Shown: in pieces, positions 24,401-30,400 of the stretch
Layout of the letters: every line of letters starts with the position of its first letter
How positions within the stretch are numbered: the stretch's first letter is position 1
DNA from: Escherichia coli
GTDB lineage: Bacteria; Pseudomonadota; Gammaproteobacteria; Enterobacterales; Enterobacteriaceae
Reading direction: 5' to 3' (one strand)
Assembly (NCBI RefSeq): GCF_011045215.1
Contig: NZ_CP049201.1
Length of the DNA stretch: 64,000 nucleotides
Made by a program: the position numbers

Positions 24401-27400
24401 CATCGTACTCATTCGTCTACTGCCGATACTTCCTCCTTTAAAACAAAACGATCATAATCGTCATGAGGCGAGCAAAGCATGAGCCAGAGAATTACTATTG
24501 ATCCGGTAACCCGTATTGAGGGGCATTTACGCATCGATTGCGAAATCGAAAATGGCGTCGTTTCGAAAGCATGGGCTTCCGGTACCATGTGGCGCGGCAT
24601 GGAAGAGATCGTGAAAAACCGCGATCCGCGCGATGCATGGATGATTGTGCAACGTATCTGTGGCGTATGTACTACCACTCACGCGCTGTCTTCCGTTCGT
24701 GCGGCAGAAAGTGCGCTGAATATCGACGTTCCGGTTAACGCGCAATACATCCGTAACATCATTCTGGCTGCGCACACCACGCATGACCATATCGTTCATT
24801 TCTATCAGCTTTCGGCGCTGGACTGGGTGGACATCACTTCTGCACTGCAAGCTGACCCAACCAAAGCCTCCGAAATGCTGAAAGGCGTTTCGACCTGGCA
24901 TCTGAACAGTCCGGAAGAGTTCACCAAAGTTCAGAACAAGATTAAAGATCTGGTTGCCAGCGGTCAGTTGGGTATTTTCGCCAATGGCTACTGGGGTCAC
25001 CCGGCGATGAAACTGCCGCCGGAAGTGAACCTGATTGCGGTAGCGCACTACCTGCAGGCGCTGGAGTGCCAGCGTGACGCTAACCGCGTCGTGGCGCTGC
25101 TGGGCGGTAAAACGCCGCACATTCAGAACCTGGCGGTAGGTGGGGTCGCTAACCCAATCAACCTCGACGGTCTGGGCGTGCTGAACCTTGAGCGCCTGAT
25201 GTACATCAAGTCTTTCATCGACAAGCTGAGCGACTTTGTTGAACAGGTTTATAAGGTTGATACCGCAGTTATTGCCGCGTTCTATCCGGAATGGCTGACG
25301 CGCGGTAAAGGTGCGGTGAACTACCTGAGCGTGCCGGAATTCCCGACCGACAGTAAAAACGGCAGCTTCCTGTTCCCGGGCGGCTACATTGAGAATGCGG
25401 ATCTGTCCTCGTATCGTCCGATCACTTCTCATTCCGATGAATACCTGATCAAAGGCATTCAGGAAAGCGCGAAGCACTCCTGGTATAAAGACGAAGCGCC
25501 GCAGGCACCGTGGGAAGGTACCACCATTCCGGCTTATGATGGTTGGTCTGACGACGGGAAATATTCCTGGGTGAAATCACCGACTTTCTACGGCAAAACG
25601 GTAGAAGTGGGTCCGCTGGCTAATATGCTGGTGAAACTGGCGGCAGGTCGCGAATCTACCCAGAACAAACTGAATGAAATCGTTGCGATTTATCAGAAAC
25701 TGACTGGCAACACGCTGGAAGTGGCACAGCTGCACTCCACGCTGGGCCGTATTATTGGTCGTACCGTTCACTGCTGTGAATTGCAGGATATCCTGCAAAA
25801 CCAATACAGTGCACTGATCACCAATATCGGCAAAGGCGATCACACCACCTTTGTGAAGCCGAACATTCCGGCAACGGGTGAGTTCAAAGGTGTTGGCTTC
25901 CTCGAAGCGCCGCGCGGTATGCTCTCTCACTGGATGGTTATTAAAGACGGTATCATCAGCAACTACCAGGCGGTTGTTCCATCAACCTGGAACTCTGGTC
26001 CGCGTAACTTCAATGATGACGTCGGTCCTTACGAGCAGTCGCTGGTGGGTACACCGGTTGCTGATCCGAATAAACCGCTGGAAGTGGTGCGTACCATTCA
26101 CTCCTTCGACCCGTGCATGGCCTGTGCGGTACACGTAGTGGATGCTGACGGCAACGAAGTGGTTTCAGTGAAGGTTCTGTAATGCGTATTTTAGTCTTAG
26201 GGGTTGGCAATATTTTGCTGACCGATGAAGCCATCGGTGTGCGGATTGTCGAAGCGTTAGAGCAACGATACATTCTGCCGGATTATGTTGAGATCCTCGA
26301 TGGCGGCACGGCGGGAATGGAGCTGCTTGGCGACATGGCAAATCGCGATCATCTGATTATTGCGGATGCCATTGTGTCGAAGAAGAGCGCGCCGGGAACG
26401 ATGATGATCCTGCGGGATGAAGAAGTTCCGGCGTTGTTTACCAACAAAATCTCTCCGCATCAGCTTGGCCTGGCCGACGTCTTGTCGGCCCTGCGCTTCA
26501 CCGGCGAGTTTCCGAAAAAGCTGACCCTGGTCGGCGTAATTCCGGAATCACTGGAGCCGCACATCGGCTTGACGCCGACGGTCGAAGCGATGATTGAACC
26601 TGCGCTTGAGCAGGTTCTGGCTGCGCTGCGTGAATCTGGCGTGGAAGCTATCCCACGGGAGGCGATTCATGACTGAAGAGATAGCAGGTTTCCAGACCTC
26701 CCCGAAGGCGCAAGTACAGGCAGCGTTTGAAGAAATTGCCCGGCGTTCGATGCACGATCTCTCTTTTCTGCATCCTTCAATGCCGGTGTATGTTTCTGAT
26801 TTTACGCTGTTCGAAGGTCAGTGGACGGGGTGTGTGATCACCCCGTGGATGCTGAGTGCAGTTATCTTCCCCGGCCCGGATCAACTCTGGCCGCTGCGCA
26901 AAGTGAGTGAAAAAATTGGTCTGCAACTGCCGTATGGCACTATGACCTTTACCGTTGGCGAACTGGACGGTGTGTCGCAATACCTCTCCTGCTCGCTGAT
27001 GTCGCCGCTTTCGCACAGCATGTCGATTGAAGAGGGCCAACGCCTGACGGATGACTGCGCACGAATGATCCTTTCGCTGCCGGTCACCAATCCGGATGTA
27101 CCACACGCAGGGCGTCGCGCCCTGCTGTTTGGTCGCAGGAGTGGCGAAAATGCATGAGTTGTCGCTTTGCCAGAGCGCCGTTGAAATTATCCAGCGGCAG
27201 GCGGAGCAGCACGATGTTAAGCGCGTCACCGCCGTGTGGCTGGAAATTGGCGCGCTCTCCTGCGTTGAGGAGAGCGCCGTCCGTTTTAGTTTTGAAATTG
27301 TCTGCCACGGAACTGTGGCGCAAGGGTGCGATTTACATATCATCTATAAACCCGCCCAGGCCTGGTGCTGGGATTGCAGCCAGGTGGTGGAGATTCATCA

Positions 27401-30400
27401 GCACGATGCGCAGTGTCCGCTCTGTCATGGCGAGCGGTTGCGTGTCGATACCGGCGATTCGCTGATCGTCAAAAGTATTGAAGTTGAATAACCGGAGTTA
27501 ACAATGTGTATTGGCGTTCCAGGCCAGGTGCTGGCTGTCGGTGAAGATATTCACCAGCTTGCGCAGGTTGAAGTATGTGGTATCAAGCGCGACGTGAATA
27601 TCGCCCTGATTTGTGAAGGTAACCCTGCCGATCTACTGGGCCAGTGGGTGCTGGTACACGTCGGATTTGCCATGAGCATCATCGACGAAGATGAAGCCAA
27701 AGCCACATTAGACGCACTGCGCCAAATGGATTACGACATTACCAGCGCGTGATGATTAGCTTTCGTAGGTCTGATAAGACGCGGCAGCGTCGCATCAGGC
27801 ATTGTTCTCGATTGCCGGATGCGGCGTGAACGCCTTATCCGGCCTGGATGGCTTGCTGCGACGAACACCAATCCTTACCCCTGACGCTTATCTTCCGTAT
27901 TCGTCTCAAAATCACTGGCGTCATGGCGCTCATGCAACTGCTCGTTCAGCGGCCCGTTGGTGCGGTTAACAATACGCCCACGCTTCACTGCCGGACGTTC
28001 GCCCACTTCTTTCGCCCAGCGTTGCACATGTTTATAACTTCCCGCATCCAGAAACTCTGCGGCATCATACACGCCGCCGAGCACCACGTTGCCAAACCAC
28101 GGCCAAATCGCCATATCCGCAATGGTGTACTCATCGCCCGCAACAAACTTATGCTGCGCCAGTTGCTTATCCAGCACGTCGAGCAGGCGCTTGGCTTCCA
28201 TGGTAAAGCGATTGATGGCGTACTCAATTTTCACCGGCGCGTAATGGTAAAAGTGACCAAAACCACCGCCGAGGAACGGCGCGGCACCCTGTAGCCAGAA
28301 CAGCCAGTTCATTGCTTCAGTACGTTTAGCCAGATCCTGCGGCAAGAAGTAGCCAAATTTTTCTGCCAGATAAAGCAGGATCGAACCAGACTCAAACACG
28401 CGGATCGGCGGATTATGCGTATGATCGCGCAGCGCCGGGATCTTCGAGTTTGGGTTCACTTCGACAAAGCCGCTGGAGAATTGATCGCCATCGCCTATGC
28501 GTATCAGCCAGGCGTCGTACTCTGCACCAGTAACGCCCAGCGCCAGCAGCTCCTCAAGCATAATCGTTACTTTCTGACCGTTCGGCGTTCCCAGCGAATA
28601 AAGTTGCAATGGATGTTTGCCAACGGGCAGCGTTTTTTCATGCGTCGGACCAGAAACCGGGCGATTGATATTGGCGAACGCGCCGCCAGCGGATTTATCC
28701 CACGTCCAGACTTTCGCGGGCTGATAAGTATTGTCTGTCATAGTGAGTTGCCTTCTGAGTGGTAGTGTTGAAGCAGTGTAGCAGGTCACTTGCTGTACAG
28801 AATGTGAATTTTTTAACCCTTTGCGCCAGCCGCTGCGATGAGGTGTATGATTAGTCTGACCTCTGTCCGGTTAATGTCGCTGAGCAGGTAATCAGAGCAC
28901 AACAATTACGCCAACTGCTTAGGTTGTATTGTTAAAGGTAAAGTGATGAGCAAAGGAACGACCAGCCAGGATGCCCCGTTCGGGACATTATTGGGCTACG
29001 CCCCAGGTGGGGTAGCAATCTACTCTTCAGATTACAGTTCTCTCGATCCGCAGGAATACGAAGATGACGCCGTATTCCGTAGCTATATCGACGACGAATA
29101 TATGGGCCACAAATGGCAATGCGTTGAATTTGCTCGCCGTTTTCTCTTTCTGAACTACGGTGTGGTCTTTACTGACGTGGGTATGGCGTGGGAGATTTTC
29201 TCGCTGCGCTTCCTGCGTGAAGTGGTTAATGACAACATCCTGCCATTGCAGGCATTTCCTAACGGCTCGCCGCGTGCGCCGGTCGCGGGTGCGCTTCTTA
29301 TCTGGGATAAAGGCGGTGAATTTAAAGACACTGGCCATGTCGCCATCATTACCCAATTGCATGGCAACAAAGTCCGTATTGCGGAACAGAACGTGATTCA
29401 TTCCCCGTTGCCGCAAGGGCAACAGTGGACGCGCGAACTGGAGATGGTGGTCGAAAACGGCTGCTATACCCTTAAAGACACTTTTGATGACACCACCATT
29501 CTGGGCTGGATGATCCAGACGGAAGATACTGAATACAGCTTACCGCAGCCGGAAATTGCAGGCGAGCTGCTGAAAATCAGCGGAGCGCGCCTGGAAAACA
29601 AAGGCCAGTTTGACGGTAAATGGCTGGATGAAAAAGATCAGCTGCAAAACGCCTATGTGCAGGCCAACGGTCAGGTGATCAATCAGGATCCGTATCATTA
29701 CTACACCATTACCGAGAGCGCCGAGCAGGAGCTGATTAAAGCCACCAACGAGCTGCACCTGATGTATCTTCACGCAACCGACAAGGTGCTGAAAGATGAC
29801 AACCTGCTGGCGCTGTTCGACATTCCGAAAATCCTCTGGCCACGTTTGCGTCTCTCCTGGCAGCGTCGCCGTCACCATATGATCACTGGTCGTATGGATT
29901 TCTGCATGGATGAGCGTGGCCTGAAGGTTTACGAATACAACGCCGACTCCGCCTCCTGTCATACCGAAGCTGGCTTGATCCTCGAACGTTGGGCGGAGCA
30001 GGGCTATAAAGGCAACGGCTTCAATCCGGCGGAAGGGCTGATTAACGAACTGGCTGGTGCCTGGAAACACAGTCGTGCACGTCCGTTTGTCCATATCATG
30101 CAGGACAAAGATATCGAGGAAAACTATCACGCGCAGTTTATGGAGCAGGCGCTGCACCAGGCGGGCTTTGAAACGCGTATCTTGCGCGGGCTGGATGAAC
30201 TGGGCTGGGATGCTGCCGGGCAACTGATTGATGGGGAAGGGCGAATGGTTAACTGCGTGTGGAAAACCTGGGCGTGGGAAACCGCGTTTGATCAGATTCG
30301 TGAAGTTAGCGACCGTGAGTTTGCTGCGGTGCCGATCCGTACCGGTCATCCGCAAAATGAAGTGCGTCTTATCGACGTATTGCTGCGCCCGGAAGTGCTG

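What the first reader, a model, noticed from the sequence alone, without database searches (positions are those of the whole stretch)
26182..27491. Overlapping start/stop codons through the hyb maturation genes
hybC/hybD, hybD/hybE and hybE/hybF overlap by 1-8 nt, and hybA/hybB and hybB/hybC overlap likewise. This is a known feature consistent with translational coupling to fix subunit and chaperone stoichiometry. It also explains why the supplied ORF track over-extends the hybE and hybF N-termini.
Basis: seen in the sequence. Interest (0 to 1): 0.15.

Follow-up and report, generated by a model that had tools for sequence, protein, structure and literature searches.

The report
Overlapping stop/start codons in hyb operon
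The genes of the E. coli hydrogenase-2 (hyb) operon really do overlap by 1 to 11 bases at five of seven junctions; this is ordinary, already-annotated operon architecture that is conserved across enteric bacteria and probably links the translation of neighbouring genes.

Summary
The window is the E. coli hybOABCDEFG operon. It is collinear with strain PapM-32-1 at 99.1-99.7% identity. Measured spacings are hybO/A +2, hybA/B -11, hybB/C -4 (ATGA), hybC/D -1 (TAATG), hybD/E -8 (ATGACTGA), hybE/F -8 (ATGCATGA) and hybF/G +12. The one imprecision is hybA/B, which overlaps by 11 nt rather than 1-8. The mechanical ORF list over-extends hybE by 25 codons and hybF by 18. Family profiles, upstream in-frame stops in other genera and HybF's N-terminal Met-His-Glu nickel motif all support the shorter annotated starts. 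In 47 loci from about 12 genera the overlap geometry barely changes, while the only true spacer (hybF/G) varies from 2 to 133 nt or holds more than 1.2 kb of extra DNA. Two synonymous sites are frozen. HybF His2 is CAT in 46/46; its T begins hybE's TGA stop. The HybD Glu is GAG in 46/47; it lies inside hybE's Shine-Dalgarno motif. This supports selected translation signals and is consistent with translational coupling, but coupling was not tested here. "Fixing stoichiometry" remains an inference. The feature is already known and of low interest.

The parts
21207..22325 (+). hybO, hydrogenase-2 small subunit (372 aa). Its stop TAA at 22323-22325 lies 2 nt before the hybA start.
   Evidence: NCBIfam NF007779 1-372/372, 834 bits; RefSeq mapping
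22312..22330 (+). Small hairpin CACGG[GGAGAAUAA]CCGUG at the hybO/hybA junction. The hybA SD (GGGGAG, 22315-22320) runs from the 5' arm into the loop. The hybO stop is in the loop and the hybA GUG start is in the 3' arm.
   Evidence: MFE fold, z = -2.57 for the 121-nt context; stem kept in 19 loci but mostly without compensatory change; hybA RBS opening energy 12.3 kcal/mol, 62nd percentile
22328..23314 (+). hybA, Fe-S protein (328 aa, GTG start).
   Evidence: NF008134, 595 bits; +2 spacing in all intact loci
23291..23314 (+). hybA/hybB junction: SD GGAGGAG 23291-23297, hybB ATG 23304, hybA TGA 23312-23314; 11-nt overlap.
   Evidence: aSD duplex -9.5 kcal/mol; -11 in most loci and -17 in 3
23304..24482 (+). 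hybB, membrane cytochrome b-type subunit (392 aa).
   Evidence: NF008133, 625 bits
24465..24482 (+). hybB/hybC junction: SD-like GAGG 24465-24468 and ATGA at 24479-24482; 4-nt overlap.
   Evidence: -4 in every intact locus
24479..26182 (+). hybC, hydrogenase-2 large subunit (567 aa).
   Evidence: NF007778 1-567/567, 1274 bits
26171..26184 (+). hybC/hybD junction: weak SD-like AAGG 26171-26174 and TAATG at 26180-26184; 1-nt overlap.
   Evidence: aSD -3.5 kcal/mol; -1 in all 47 loci, with TAATG and TGATG both used; RBS predicted open, 6th percentile
26182..26676 (+). hybD, maturation endopeptidase (164 aa).
   Evidence: NF007777 1-164/164, 311 bits
26657..26676 (+). hybD/hybE junction: SD GGGAGG 26657-26662, hybE ATG 26669-26671, hybD TGA 26674-26676 (ATGACTGA); 8-nt overlap.
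   Evidence: aSD -10.3 kcal/mol; the Glu codon inside the SD is GAG in 46/47 loci; spacing is -8 in most loci, -11 in 4, -14 in 2, +1/+2 in 4, and one frameshifted outlier
26669..27157 (+). hybE, hydrogenase-2 assembly chaperone (162 aa). The mechanical ORF starts 75 nt upstream, at TTG 26594.
   Evidence: NF007776 aligns profile 1-162 to residues 26-187 of the extended ORF; an in-frame stop lies 2-7 codons upstream of the ATG in several genera, and 16/44 loci have no upstream start candidate
27137..27157 (+). hybE/hybF junction: SD AGGAG 27137-27141, hybF ATG 27150-27152, hybE TGA 27155-27157 (ATGCATGA); 8-nt overlap. The hybE stop is built from the third base of HybF His2 (CAT) and the first two bases of Glu3.
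   Evidence: ATGCATGA in 46/46 intact loci; His2 is CAT in 46/46 while all 22 other conserved two-fold codons of hybF vary
27150..27491 (+). hybF (annotated hypA in RefSeq), nickel metallochaperone (113 aa, N-terminal MHE). The mechanical ORF starts 54 nt upstream, at ATG 27096.
   Evidence: Six HypA-family profiles start at residue 19 of the extended ORF; the MHE motif with its N-terminal amine is the Ni site (PMC7055735); the upstream ATG is lost in L026 and L027; 10/46 loci have no upstream start candidate
27492..27503 (+). hybF/hybG 12-nt spacer containing the hybG SD GGAG (27494-27497). This is the only true intergenic spacer of the maturation genes.
   Evidence: spacing is 2-30 nt in other genera, 133 nt with a 121-bp repeat insertion, and >1.2 kb in Leminorella and Limnobaculum; RBS predicted open, 3rd percentile
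27504..27752 (+). hybG, HypC-type chaperone (82 aa).
   Evidence: NF007721, 173 bits

Best explanation
The region is the maturation half (hybD-hybE-hybF, then hybG) of the E. coli hydrogenase-2 operon hybOABCDEFG, read as one polycistronic message. The genes are packed so that each downstream start codon lies inside or right next to the upstream stop: -1 TAATG, -4 ATGA, -8 ATGNNTGA, -11. Each Shine-Dalgarno motif is embedded in the last codons of the upstream gene. The most likely mechanism is translational coupling. A ribosome that reaches the upstream stop either re-initiates at the adjacent start (termination-reinitiation) or melts local structure so that a new 30S subunit can bind. Termination-reinitiation is most plausible for hybB->C and hybC->D, where the SD motifs are weak. 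Structure melting is most plausible for hybO->A and hybE->F, whose RBS regions are predicted to be more structured. Either way, the accessory proteins would be made only when and where the structural genes are being translated. What is shown: the overlaps, the correct start sites, conservation of the geometry across Enterobacterales, and purifying selection on two synonymous sites that carry a stop and an SD. What is inferred: that downstream translation depends on upstream translation, and that this serves co-expression or stoichiometry. The invariance of the hybE/hybF junction has a partly trivial cause. HybF must begin Met-His-Glu, so ATG-CAY-GAR is fixed by the protein and only the choice of CAT over CAC is left to preserve hybE's TGA.
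For: Forty-seven loci from Escherichia, Citrobacter, Salmonella, Intestinirhabdus, Pseudocitrobacter, Morganella, Trabulsiella, Leminorella, Limnobaculum, Phytobacter, Kosakonia and Enterobacter keep +2/-11/-4/-1/-8/-8, while the hybF/G spacer varies freely. The stop codon at C/D switches between TAA and TGA while the -1 geometry is kept. The D/E junction turns over among -8, -11, -14, +1 and +2 but always stays tight and always keeps GGAG. HybF His2 is CAT in 46/46 and the HybD Glu in hybE's SD is GAG in 46/47; only 2 of about 70 other conserved two-fold codons are invariant. Upstream in-frame stops in other genera exclude longer N-termini. hyb junctions overlap more often than other co-directional junctions of the window (5/7 vs 5/31, p = 0.008). 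On the literature side, -4, -1 and -8 are the enriched spacings, coupling is most efficient at short spacings, and 13 of 14 tested overlapping pairs were strictly coupled. Pairs at -8 to +10 nt are 4.5-fold enriched for heteromeric-complex subunits in E. coli. No terminator or promoter excess was found inside the operon.
Against: There are no direct data on hyb translation. Longer overlaps (-8, -11) are reported to couple less well than -4 or -1. hybB, hybE and hybA have strong SDs that could support independent initiation. There is no conserved, covarying RBS-sequestering structure at hybE/F (consensus energy -3.4 kcal/mol), and five of the seven junction contexts fold no better than shuffles. 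Conservation of overlap length is partly forced, because any indel in a dual-coding stretch damages two proteins and the MHE motif fixes most of ATGCATGA. hybG tolerates a 133-nt spacer in natural strains, so at least that junction needs no tight coupling.
Confidence: 0.7

Rival explanations
1. Neutral compaction. The overlaps arose by loss of stop codons or gain of upstream starts during genome streamlining. They persist only because changes in a dual-coding stretch are deleterious. Each gene is translated independently from its own SD, and the overlaps have no regulatory role.
For: Every downstream gene has an SD-like motif at the right distance. The D/E junction drifts among -8, -11, -14, +1 and +2. 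The E/F geometry is largely dictated by the MHE motif. The -8 and -11 overlaps are sub-optimal for reinitiation. Brown & Wade note that the abundance of -4 may reflect ease of evolution.
Against: Spacing never relaxes beyond +2 at any of the six upstream junctions in intact loci, although the F/G spacer shows that spacers can grow. The synonymous T of His2 that makes hybE's stop is invariant, while all 22 comparable hybF codons vary. hybD and hybC have weak SDs (-3.5 and -5.6 kcal/mol). In published tests, 13 of 14 overlapping pairs were strictly coupled.
Confidence: 0.25
2. Annotation artefact. The true starts of hybE and/or hybF lie elsewhere, either at the longer ORFs (26594, 27096) or at a downstream codon, so the 8-nt overlaps are not real.
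For: The frames are open upstream, with candidate starts TTG 26594 and ATG 27096. TTG 27159 lies just after the hybE stop.
Against: Profiles of six HypA families and two HybE families begin at the annotated Met. The HypA/HybF nickel site needs the free N-terminal amine of Met1-His2-Glu3. In-frame stops lie 2-7 codons upstream in other genera, and 16/44 (hybE) and 10/46 (hybF) loci have no upstream candidate at all. The upstream ATG 27096 is GAC in L026 and L027, and codon 4 of hybF is CTG rather than TTG in many loci.
Confidence: 0.02
3. The overlaps serve programmed frameshifting or read-through, producing HybD-HybE or HybE-HybF fusion proteins.
For: Only that the downstream frame is open for 26-28 codons upstream of the start in the window.
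Against: The upstream open frame is closed by stops within 2-7 codons in other genera. No slippery heptamer or conserved downstream structure was seen at the junctions. A fusion would bury HybF's N-terminal Ni site.
Confidence: 0.01

Closest known systems
E. coli K-12 hybOABCDEFG operon as annotated (Menon et al. 1994, J Bacteriol 176:4416, cited in PMC9002611; RefSeq/PGAP annotation)
   Same: Same genes, order, lengths and junction coordinates. The annotated CDS boundaries in strains PapM-32-1 and PS10-3 give the same 1-, 8- and 8-nt overlaps. The region is present in 5417 of 5426 complete E. coli genomes at >=95% identity.
   Different: Nothing of substance. The window differs by about 0.5-0.9% from the nearest complete genome. 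I could not read the 1994 paper, so what it says about the overlaps is not verified.
Short-overlap co-directional gene pairs coupled by termination-reinitiation (e.g. trpB-trpA; Huber et al. 2019 PMC6728339, Huber et al. 2023 PMC10666635; review Brown & Wade 2025 PMC12548453)
   Same: Spacing classes -1 (TAATG), -4 (ATGA) and -8 (NTGNNTGA); SD embedded in the upstream gene; genes encoding interacting proteins.
   Different: Coupling has not been measured for any hyb pair. hybA/B at -11 lies outside the -8 to +10 window those authors use as predictive, and hybF/G at +12 falls in the range they set aside as variable.
RNA-unfolding type of translational coupling (e.g. atpH-atpA, cited in PMC6728339 and reviewed in PMC12548453)
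   Same: hybA and hybF RBS regions are predicted to be more structured than the first-gene RBS (12.3 and 13.3 vs 7.7 kcal/mol). A small hairpin holds the hybA GUG start.
   Different: There is no covariation support. The E/F structure is not conserved outside Escherichia, and the other junctions fold no better than shuffled sequence.

Membership tests
Hydrogenase-2 (hyb) operon of Enterobacterales | Eight genes, each matching its equivalog/subfamily model above the curated cut-off (HybO, A, B, C, D, E, HybF/HypA-type, HybG) | tested here: met
   all eight score above cut-off (e.g. HybD 311 vs 190, HybE 285 vs 188, HybF 243 vs 113, HybG 173 vs 115)
Hydrogenase-2 (hyb) operon of Enterobacterales | Gene order hybO-A-B-C-D-E-F-G on one strand, in the yghW...yghU/gss neighbourhood | tested here: met
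   collinear with the annotated E. coli chromosome
Overlapping gene pairs predicted to couple by termination-reinitiation (criterion of Huber et al. 2023: co-directional, spacing -8 to +10 nt) | Stop/start spacing between -8 and +10 nt | tested here: met
   O/A +2, B/C -4, C/D -1, D/E -8, E/F -8 meet it. A/B (-11) and F/G (+12) fall just outside.
Overlapping gene pairs predicted to couple by termination-reinitiation | Both genes on one transcript, with no internal terminator or promoter between them | tested here: inconclusive
   terminator-like and promoter-like sites are at or below shuffle expectation (10 vs 7.0+/-2.6; 3 vs 5.4+/-1.9). These are consensus scans only, and no transcript data were examined for hyb.
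Overlapping gene pairs predicted to couple by termination-reinitiation | Translation of the downstream gene depends on translation of the upstream gene to its natural stop | not testable with these tools
   Needs reporter fusions with premature stops or ribosome profiling. No such hyb data were found.
HypA/HybF nickel metallochaperones (bears on the hybF start and hence the 8-nt overlap) | N-terminal Met-His-Glu nickel site and two CxxC zinc motifs | tested here: met
   The translation starts MHELSLC. Conserved Cys at 73, 76, 89 and 92 and MHE are present in 46/46 loci. The motif is defined in PMC7055735.

The most novel reading that the evidence does not exclude
The hyb junctions may be more than passive packing. 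hybE's stop sits inside the codons of HybF's nickel-binding His2-Glu3, with a frozen synonymous CAT. The hybO/hybA hairpin encloses the GUG start. A conserved 10-bp hairpin lies inside hybF (27252-27277). Together these could form a graded translational relay that sets decreasing or conditional output of the maturation proteins relative to the structural subunits. On this reading the hybF-internal hairpin would act as an mRNA processing, stability or attenuation element that separates hybG expression from the rest.
Probability: 0.07. Interest if true: 0.35.

Novelty: already known. Interest (0 to 1): 0.1.

Why it matters
The main value is practical. The result confirms which start codons are right for hybE and hybF: mechanical ORF calls are 25 and 18 codons too long, and an N-terminal extension would bury HybF's nickel site. 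It also shows that the translation signals of each maturation gene lie inside the preceding gene. Deletions, tags or refactoring of the hyb operon therefore have to preserve the last ~25 nt of each upstream gene. The comparative result is a small, clean example of dual-coding constraint, with fixed overlap geometry, a free hybF/G spacer and two frozen synonymous sites. It does not change what is known about hydrogenase maturation or translational coupling.

Tried and rejected
- **Hyb-specific data.** I searched the paper library for hyb-specific translational-coupling, overlap or ribosome-profiling data. Nothing relevant came up. The only 'translational coupling' mention concerns plasmid co-expression of hypD with hybG. 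The search was poorly chosen and uninformative.
- **Original operon paper.** Menon et al. 1994 is not held.
- **RNA structure at hybE/F.** I tested whether a conserved structure sequesters the RBS. The 121-nt context folds well in the window (z = -2.9). That is due to an Escherichia-only hairpin at 27107-27125, and the 20-locus consensus has almost no structure (-3.4 kcal/mol). Rejected as a conserved element.
- **Antisense ORF.** The 188-aa ORF at 26777-27343(-) was tested as a possible gene. It is interrupted or shifted in frame in close and distant relatives, so it is spurious.
- **Apparent exceptions to the conserved spacing.** L008, L034, L035 and L049 trace to split tblastn matches, meaning frameshifts or assembly errors. 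Their extrapolated starts fall at the usual positions.
- **3'-end mapping.** I looked for a 3' end at the hybF-internal hairpin in Adams et al. 2021. None is listed, but hyb is poorly expressed in those conditions, so this is uninformative.

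
Full report
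**What the region is**

A 7-kb stretch around the finding matches 5417 of 5426 complete E. coli genomes over at least 80% of its length. The whole 64-kb window is collinear with strain PapM-32-1 at 99.1-99.7% identity.

RefSeq annotation of that strain maps onto the window as follows:

| Gene | Window coordinates |
|---|---|
| hybO | 21207-22325 |
| hybA | 22328-23314 (GTG start) |
| hybB | 23304-24482 |
| hybC | 24479-26182 |
| hybD | 26182-26676 |
| hybE | 26669-27157 |
| hybF (named hypA by PGAP) | 27150-27491 |
| hybG | 27504-27752 |

I checked each gene directly. All have proper start and stop codons and no internal stops. All eight proteins score above the curated cut-offs of their NCBIfam models.

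**Check of the observation**

The junctions, read from the sequence:

| Junction | Spacing | Sequence |
|---|---|---|
| hybO/A | 2-nt gap | |
| hybA/B | 11-nt overlap | |
| hybB/C | 4-nt overlap | ATGA |
| hybC/D | 1-nt overlap | TAATG |
| hybD/E | 8-nt overlap | ATGACTGA |
| hybE/F | 8-nt overlap | ATGCATGA |
| hybF/G | 12-nt gap | |

The mechanical ORF list does over-extend hybE (TTG 26594, 187 aa) and hybF (ATG 27096, 131 aa). Family profiles align from residue 26 and residue 19 of those ORFs, which are the annotated ATGs.

**Are the annotated starts, and hence the overlaps, right?**

Three independent lines say yes.

- **Profiles.** Profiles from distant HypA and HybE families begin at the annotated Met.
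- **The HybF nickel site.** HybF begins Met-His-Glu. In HypA-type proteins this N-terminal motif, including the free N-terminal amine, is the nickel site, and inserting one residue perturbs it (PMC7055735). An 18-residue extension is therefore not credible.
- **Upstream stops in related genera.** The upstream frame is closed by a stop 2-7 codons before the hybE ATG or 5-7 codons before the hybF ATG. In addition, 16 of 44 (hybE) and 10 of 46 (hybF) loci have no upstream start candidate at all. The ATG at 27096 is only an Asp-GAT plus G of hybE and becomes GAC in L026 and L027.

**More than chance?**

Within this window, annotation gives 31 other co-directional neighbouring pairs, of which 5 overlap (all -1 or -4). 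In hyb, 5 of 7 overlap (Fisher p = 0.008; spacings).

The stronger evidence is comparative. One scan of representative genomes with HybE returned 47 loci from Escherichia, Citrobacter, Salmonella, Intestinirhabdus, Pseudocitrobacter, Morganella, Trabulsiella, Leminorella, Limnobaculum, Phytobacter, Kosakonia and Enterobacter. I located all eight genes in each locus by tblastn and measured the spacings.

| Junction | Spacing across loci |
|---|---|
| hybO/A | +2 in every intact locus |
| hybA/B | -11 (-17 in three) |
| hybB/C | -4 in all |
| hybC/D | -1 in all 47, using both TAATG and TGATG |
| hybE/F | -8, as ATGCATGA, in 46 of 46 |
| hybD/E | -8 in most, -11 in four, -14 in two, +1 or +2 in four; always with GGAG upstream |
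| hybF/G | 2, 5, 7, 12, 17, 18, 22, 27, 30 or 133 nt, or >1.2 kb of extra DNA |

The few apparent exceptions (L008, L034, L035, L049) are split matches, meaning frameshifts or assembly errors. Their extrapolated starts fall at the usual place.

**Selection on the signals themselves**

I examined conserved two-fold-degenerate codons of hybD, hybE and hybF across these loci.

- HybF His2 is CAT in 46 of 46. Its T is the first base of hybE's TGA. All 22 other such codons in hybF vary.
- The HybD Glu codon inside hybE's SD (cGG GAG) is GAG in 46 of 47.
- Only two other codons of about 70 are invariant.

The dual coding is visible at the protein level too. HybE's penultimate codon is NAT, and Asn, His, Asp and Tyr all occur there, while its last codon is fixed as GCA by hybF's ATG-CAT.

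Part of the invariance of ATGCATGA is forced by the MHE motif. Only the choice of CAT over CAC is attributable to keeping hybE's stop.

**How it probably works**

Every downstream start has an SD-like motif 5-9 nt upstream, inside the preceding gene. Anti-SD duplex energies (kcal/mol):

| Gene | Anti-SD duplex energy |
|---|---|
| hybA | -8.1 |
| hybB | -9.5 |
| hybC | -5.6 |
| hybD | -3.5 |
| hybE | -10.3 |
| hybF | -7.0 |
| hybG | -6.1 |

Predicted energies to open the -20..+10 region (kcal/mol; operon median 11.4):

| Gene | Opening energy | Note |
|---|---|---|
| hybO | 7.7 | first gene |
| hybD | 6.9 | |
| hybG | 6.2 | |
| hybC | 9.6 | intermediate |
| hybB | 10.5 | intermediate |
| hybE | 10.6 | intermediate |
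| hybA | 12.3 | highest pair |
| hybF | 13.3 | highest pair |

My reading follows from these two tables.

- hybC and hybD have weak SDs and -4/-1 spacing. They are the best candidates for classical termination-reinitiation.
- hybA has a GUG start held in a 5-bp hairpin, with the hybO stop in its loop and the hybA SD running from the 5' arm into the loop. hybA and hybF may gain from unfolding by the upstream ribosome.
- hybB and hybE could also initiate on their own.
- hybG is independent or only loosely coupled.

These are inferences. The general literature supports them: -4, -1 and -8 are the enriched spacings and short spacings couple best, 13 of 14 tested overlapping pairs were strictly coupled, and pairs at -8 to +10 nt are enriched for complex subunits. 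The same sources say that -8 couples less well than -4 or -1 and that context matters. I found no conserved covarying structure at hybE/F and no excess of terminator-like or promoter-like sites inside the operon.

**The stoichiometry claim**

- Coupling makes expression co-vary. It does not by itself set ratios.
- hybO and hybC, the two subunits that must be equimolar, are separated by two genes.
- HybD, E, F and G act transiently on precursors (my own knowledge of the pathway, not tested here).
- hybF/G tolerates a 121-bp repeat insertion in Escherichia sp. E1V33 and E. coli PS10-3.

I found no hyb-specific ribosome-profiling or reporter data, and the original operon paper is not held.

**Rivals**

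- **Neutral compaction with independent initiation** remains possible (about 0.25). It would be supported if premature stops in the upstream gene left downstream synthesis unchanged.
- **Mis-annotated starts** are essentially excluded.
- **Frameshift fusions** have nothing in their favour.

**Verdict**

Novelty is "already known" and interest is low. The comparative result, with conserved geometry, a free hybF/G spacer and two frozen synonymous sites, is a tidy illustration rather than a discovery.

Noticed in passing
window 27252-27277 (+), inside hybF: A perfect 10-bp GC-rich hairpin, GCGCTCTCCT-GCGTTG-AGGAGAGCGC, followed by CGTCCGTTTT (terminator-like, -23 kcal/mol). It lies 102 nt into hybF. 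The stem is kept in most Enterobacterales loci: 87% of cells are paired vs 37-67% for slid controls. There is some synonymous-site covariation (GCG/AGC to GCA/AGT: GC 29, AU 6, GU 3, broken 5), but it degrades in Morganella, Kosakonia and Phytobacter. Its function is unknown. It could be a by-product of the conserved GALSCVEESA peptide.
   Followed up: partly
window 22312-22330 (+), hybO/hybA junction: A small hairpin, CACGG[GGAGAAUAA]CCGUG, whose loop holds the hybO stop, whose 5' arm and loop carry the hybA SD (22315-22320), and whose 3' arm contains the hybA GUG start. It is conserved in 19 loci but almost without compensatory changes.
   Followed up: partly
L006 2703-2823; L051 (E. coli PS10-3) between hybF and hybG: A 121-bp GC-rich palindromic intergenic repeat is inserted exactly in the hybF/hybG spacer, giving 133-nt spacing. 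The hybG SD is left intact. The only non-overlapping junction of the maturation genes is also the only one seen to accept an insertion. No copy of the element's core is present in the window.
   Followed up: partly
window 27107-27125 (+), 3' end of hybE: A strong hairpin, GCAGGGCGTCGCGCCCTGC (8 bp, 7 GC), lies 25 nt upstream of the hybF start. It accounts for the low folding energy of the hybE/F junction in the window but is not conserved outside Escherichia.
   Followed up: partly
window 26777-27343 (-): A 188-aa antisense ORF runs across hybE/hybF. It is interrupted or frame-shifted in E. whittamii, another Escherichia sp. and other genera, so it is spurious.
   Followed up: yes
window ~34255-44109: An accessory gene cluster between yghS and yghO. 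By the annotation of the near-identical strain it contains two hypothetical proteins, an LPS-biosynthesis-like protein, a YtfJ-family protein, LptF/LptG paralogs, and on the minus strand a serine palmitoyltransferase, an acyl carrier protein, an epimerase/dehydratase and a fatty acyl-AMP ligase. This looks like a lipid-biosynthesis and export module.
   Followed up: no
window 60100-60400: A tandem REP/BIME-type repeat array downstream of sslE. The window carries about 200 nt more of it than strain PapM-32-1.
   Followed up: no
window ~27492-27503 (-), by correspondence with K-12 position 3139969: A supplementary table of Adams et al. 2021 (eLife, PMC7815308) lists a weak antisense position opposite the hybF/hybG boundary in K-12. 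No hyb-internal 3' end is listed there, but hyb is poorly expressed in the conditions used.
   Followed up: no
window 27875-28789 (-): The mechanical ORF for yghU (304 aa, GTG) is longer than the annotated 288-aa gene of the near-identical strain. This is the same over-extension effect as for hybE and hybF, here without any gene overlap.
   Followed up: no
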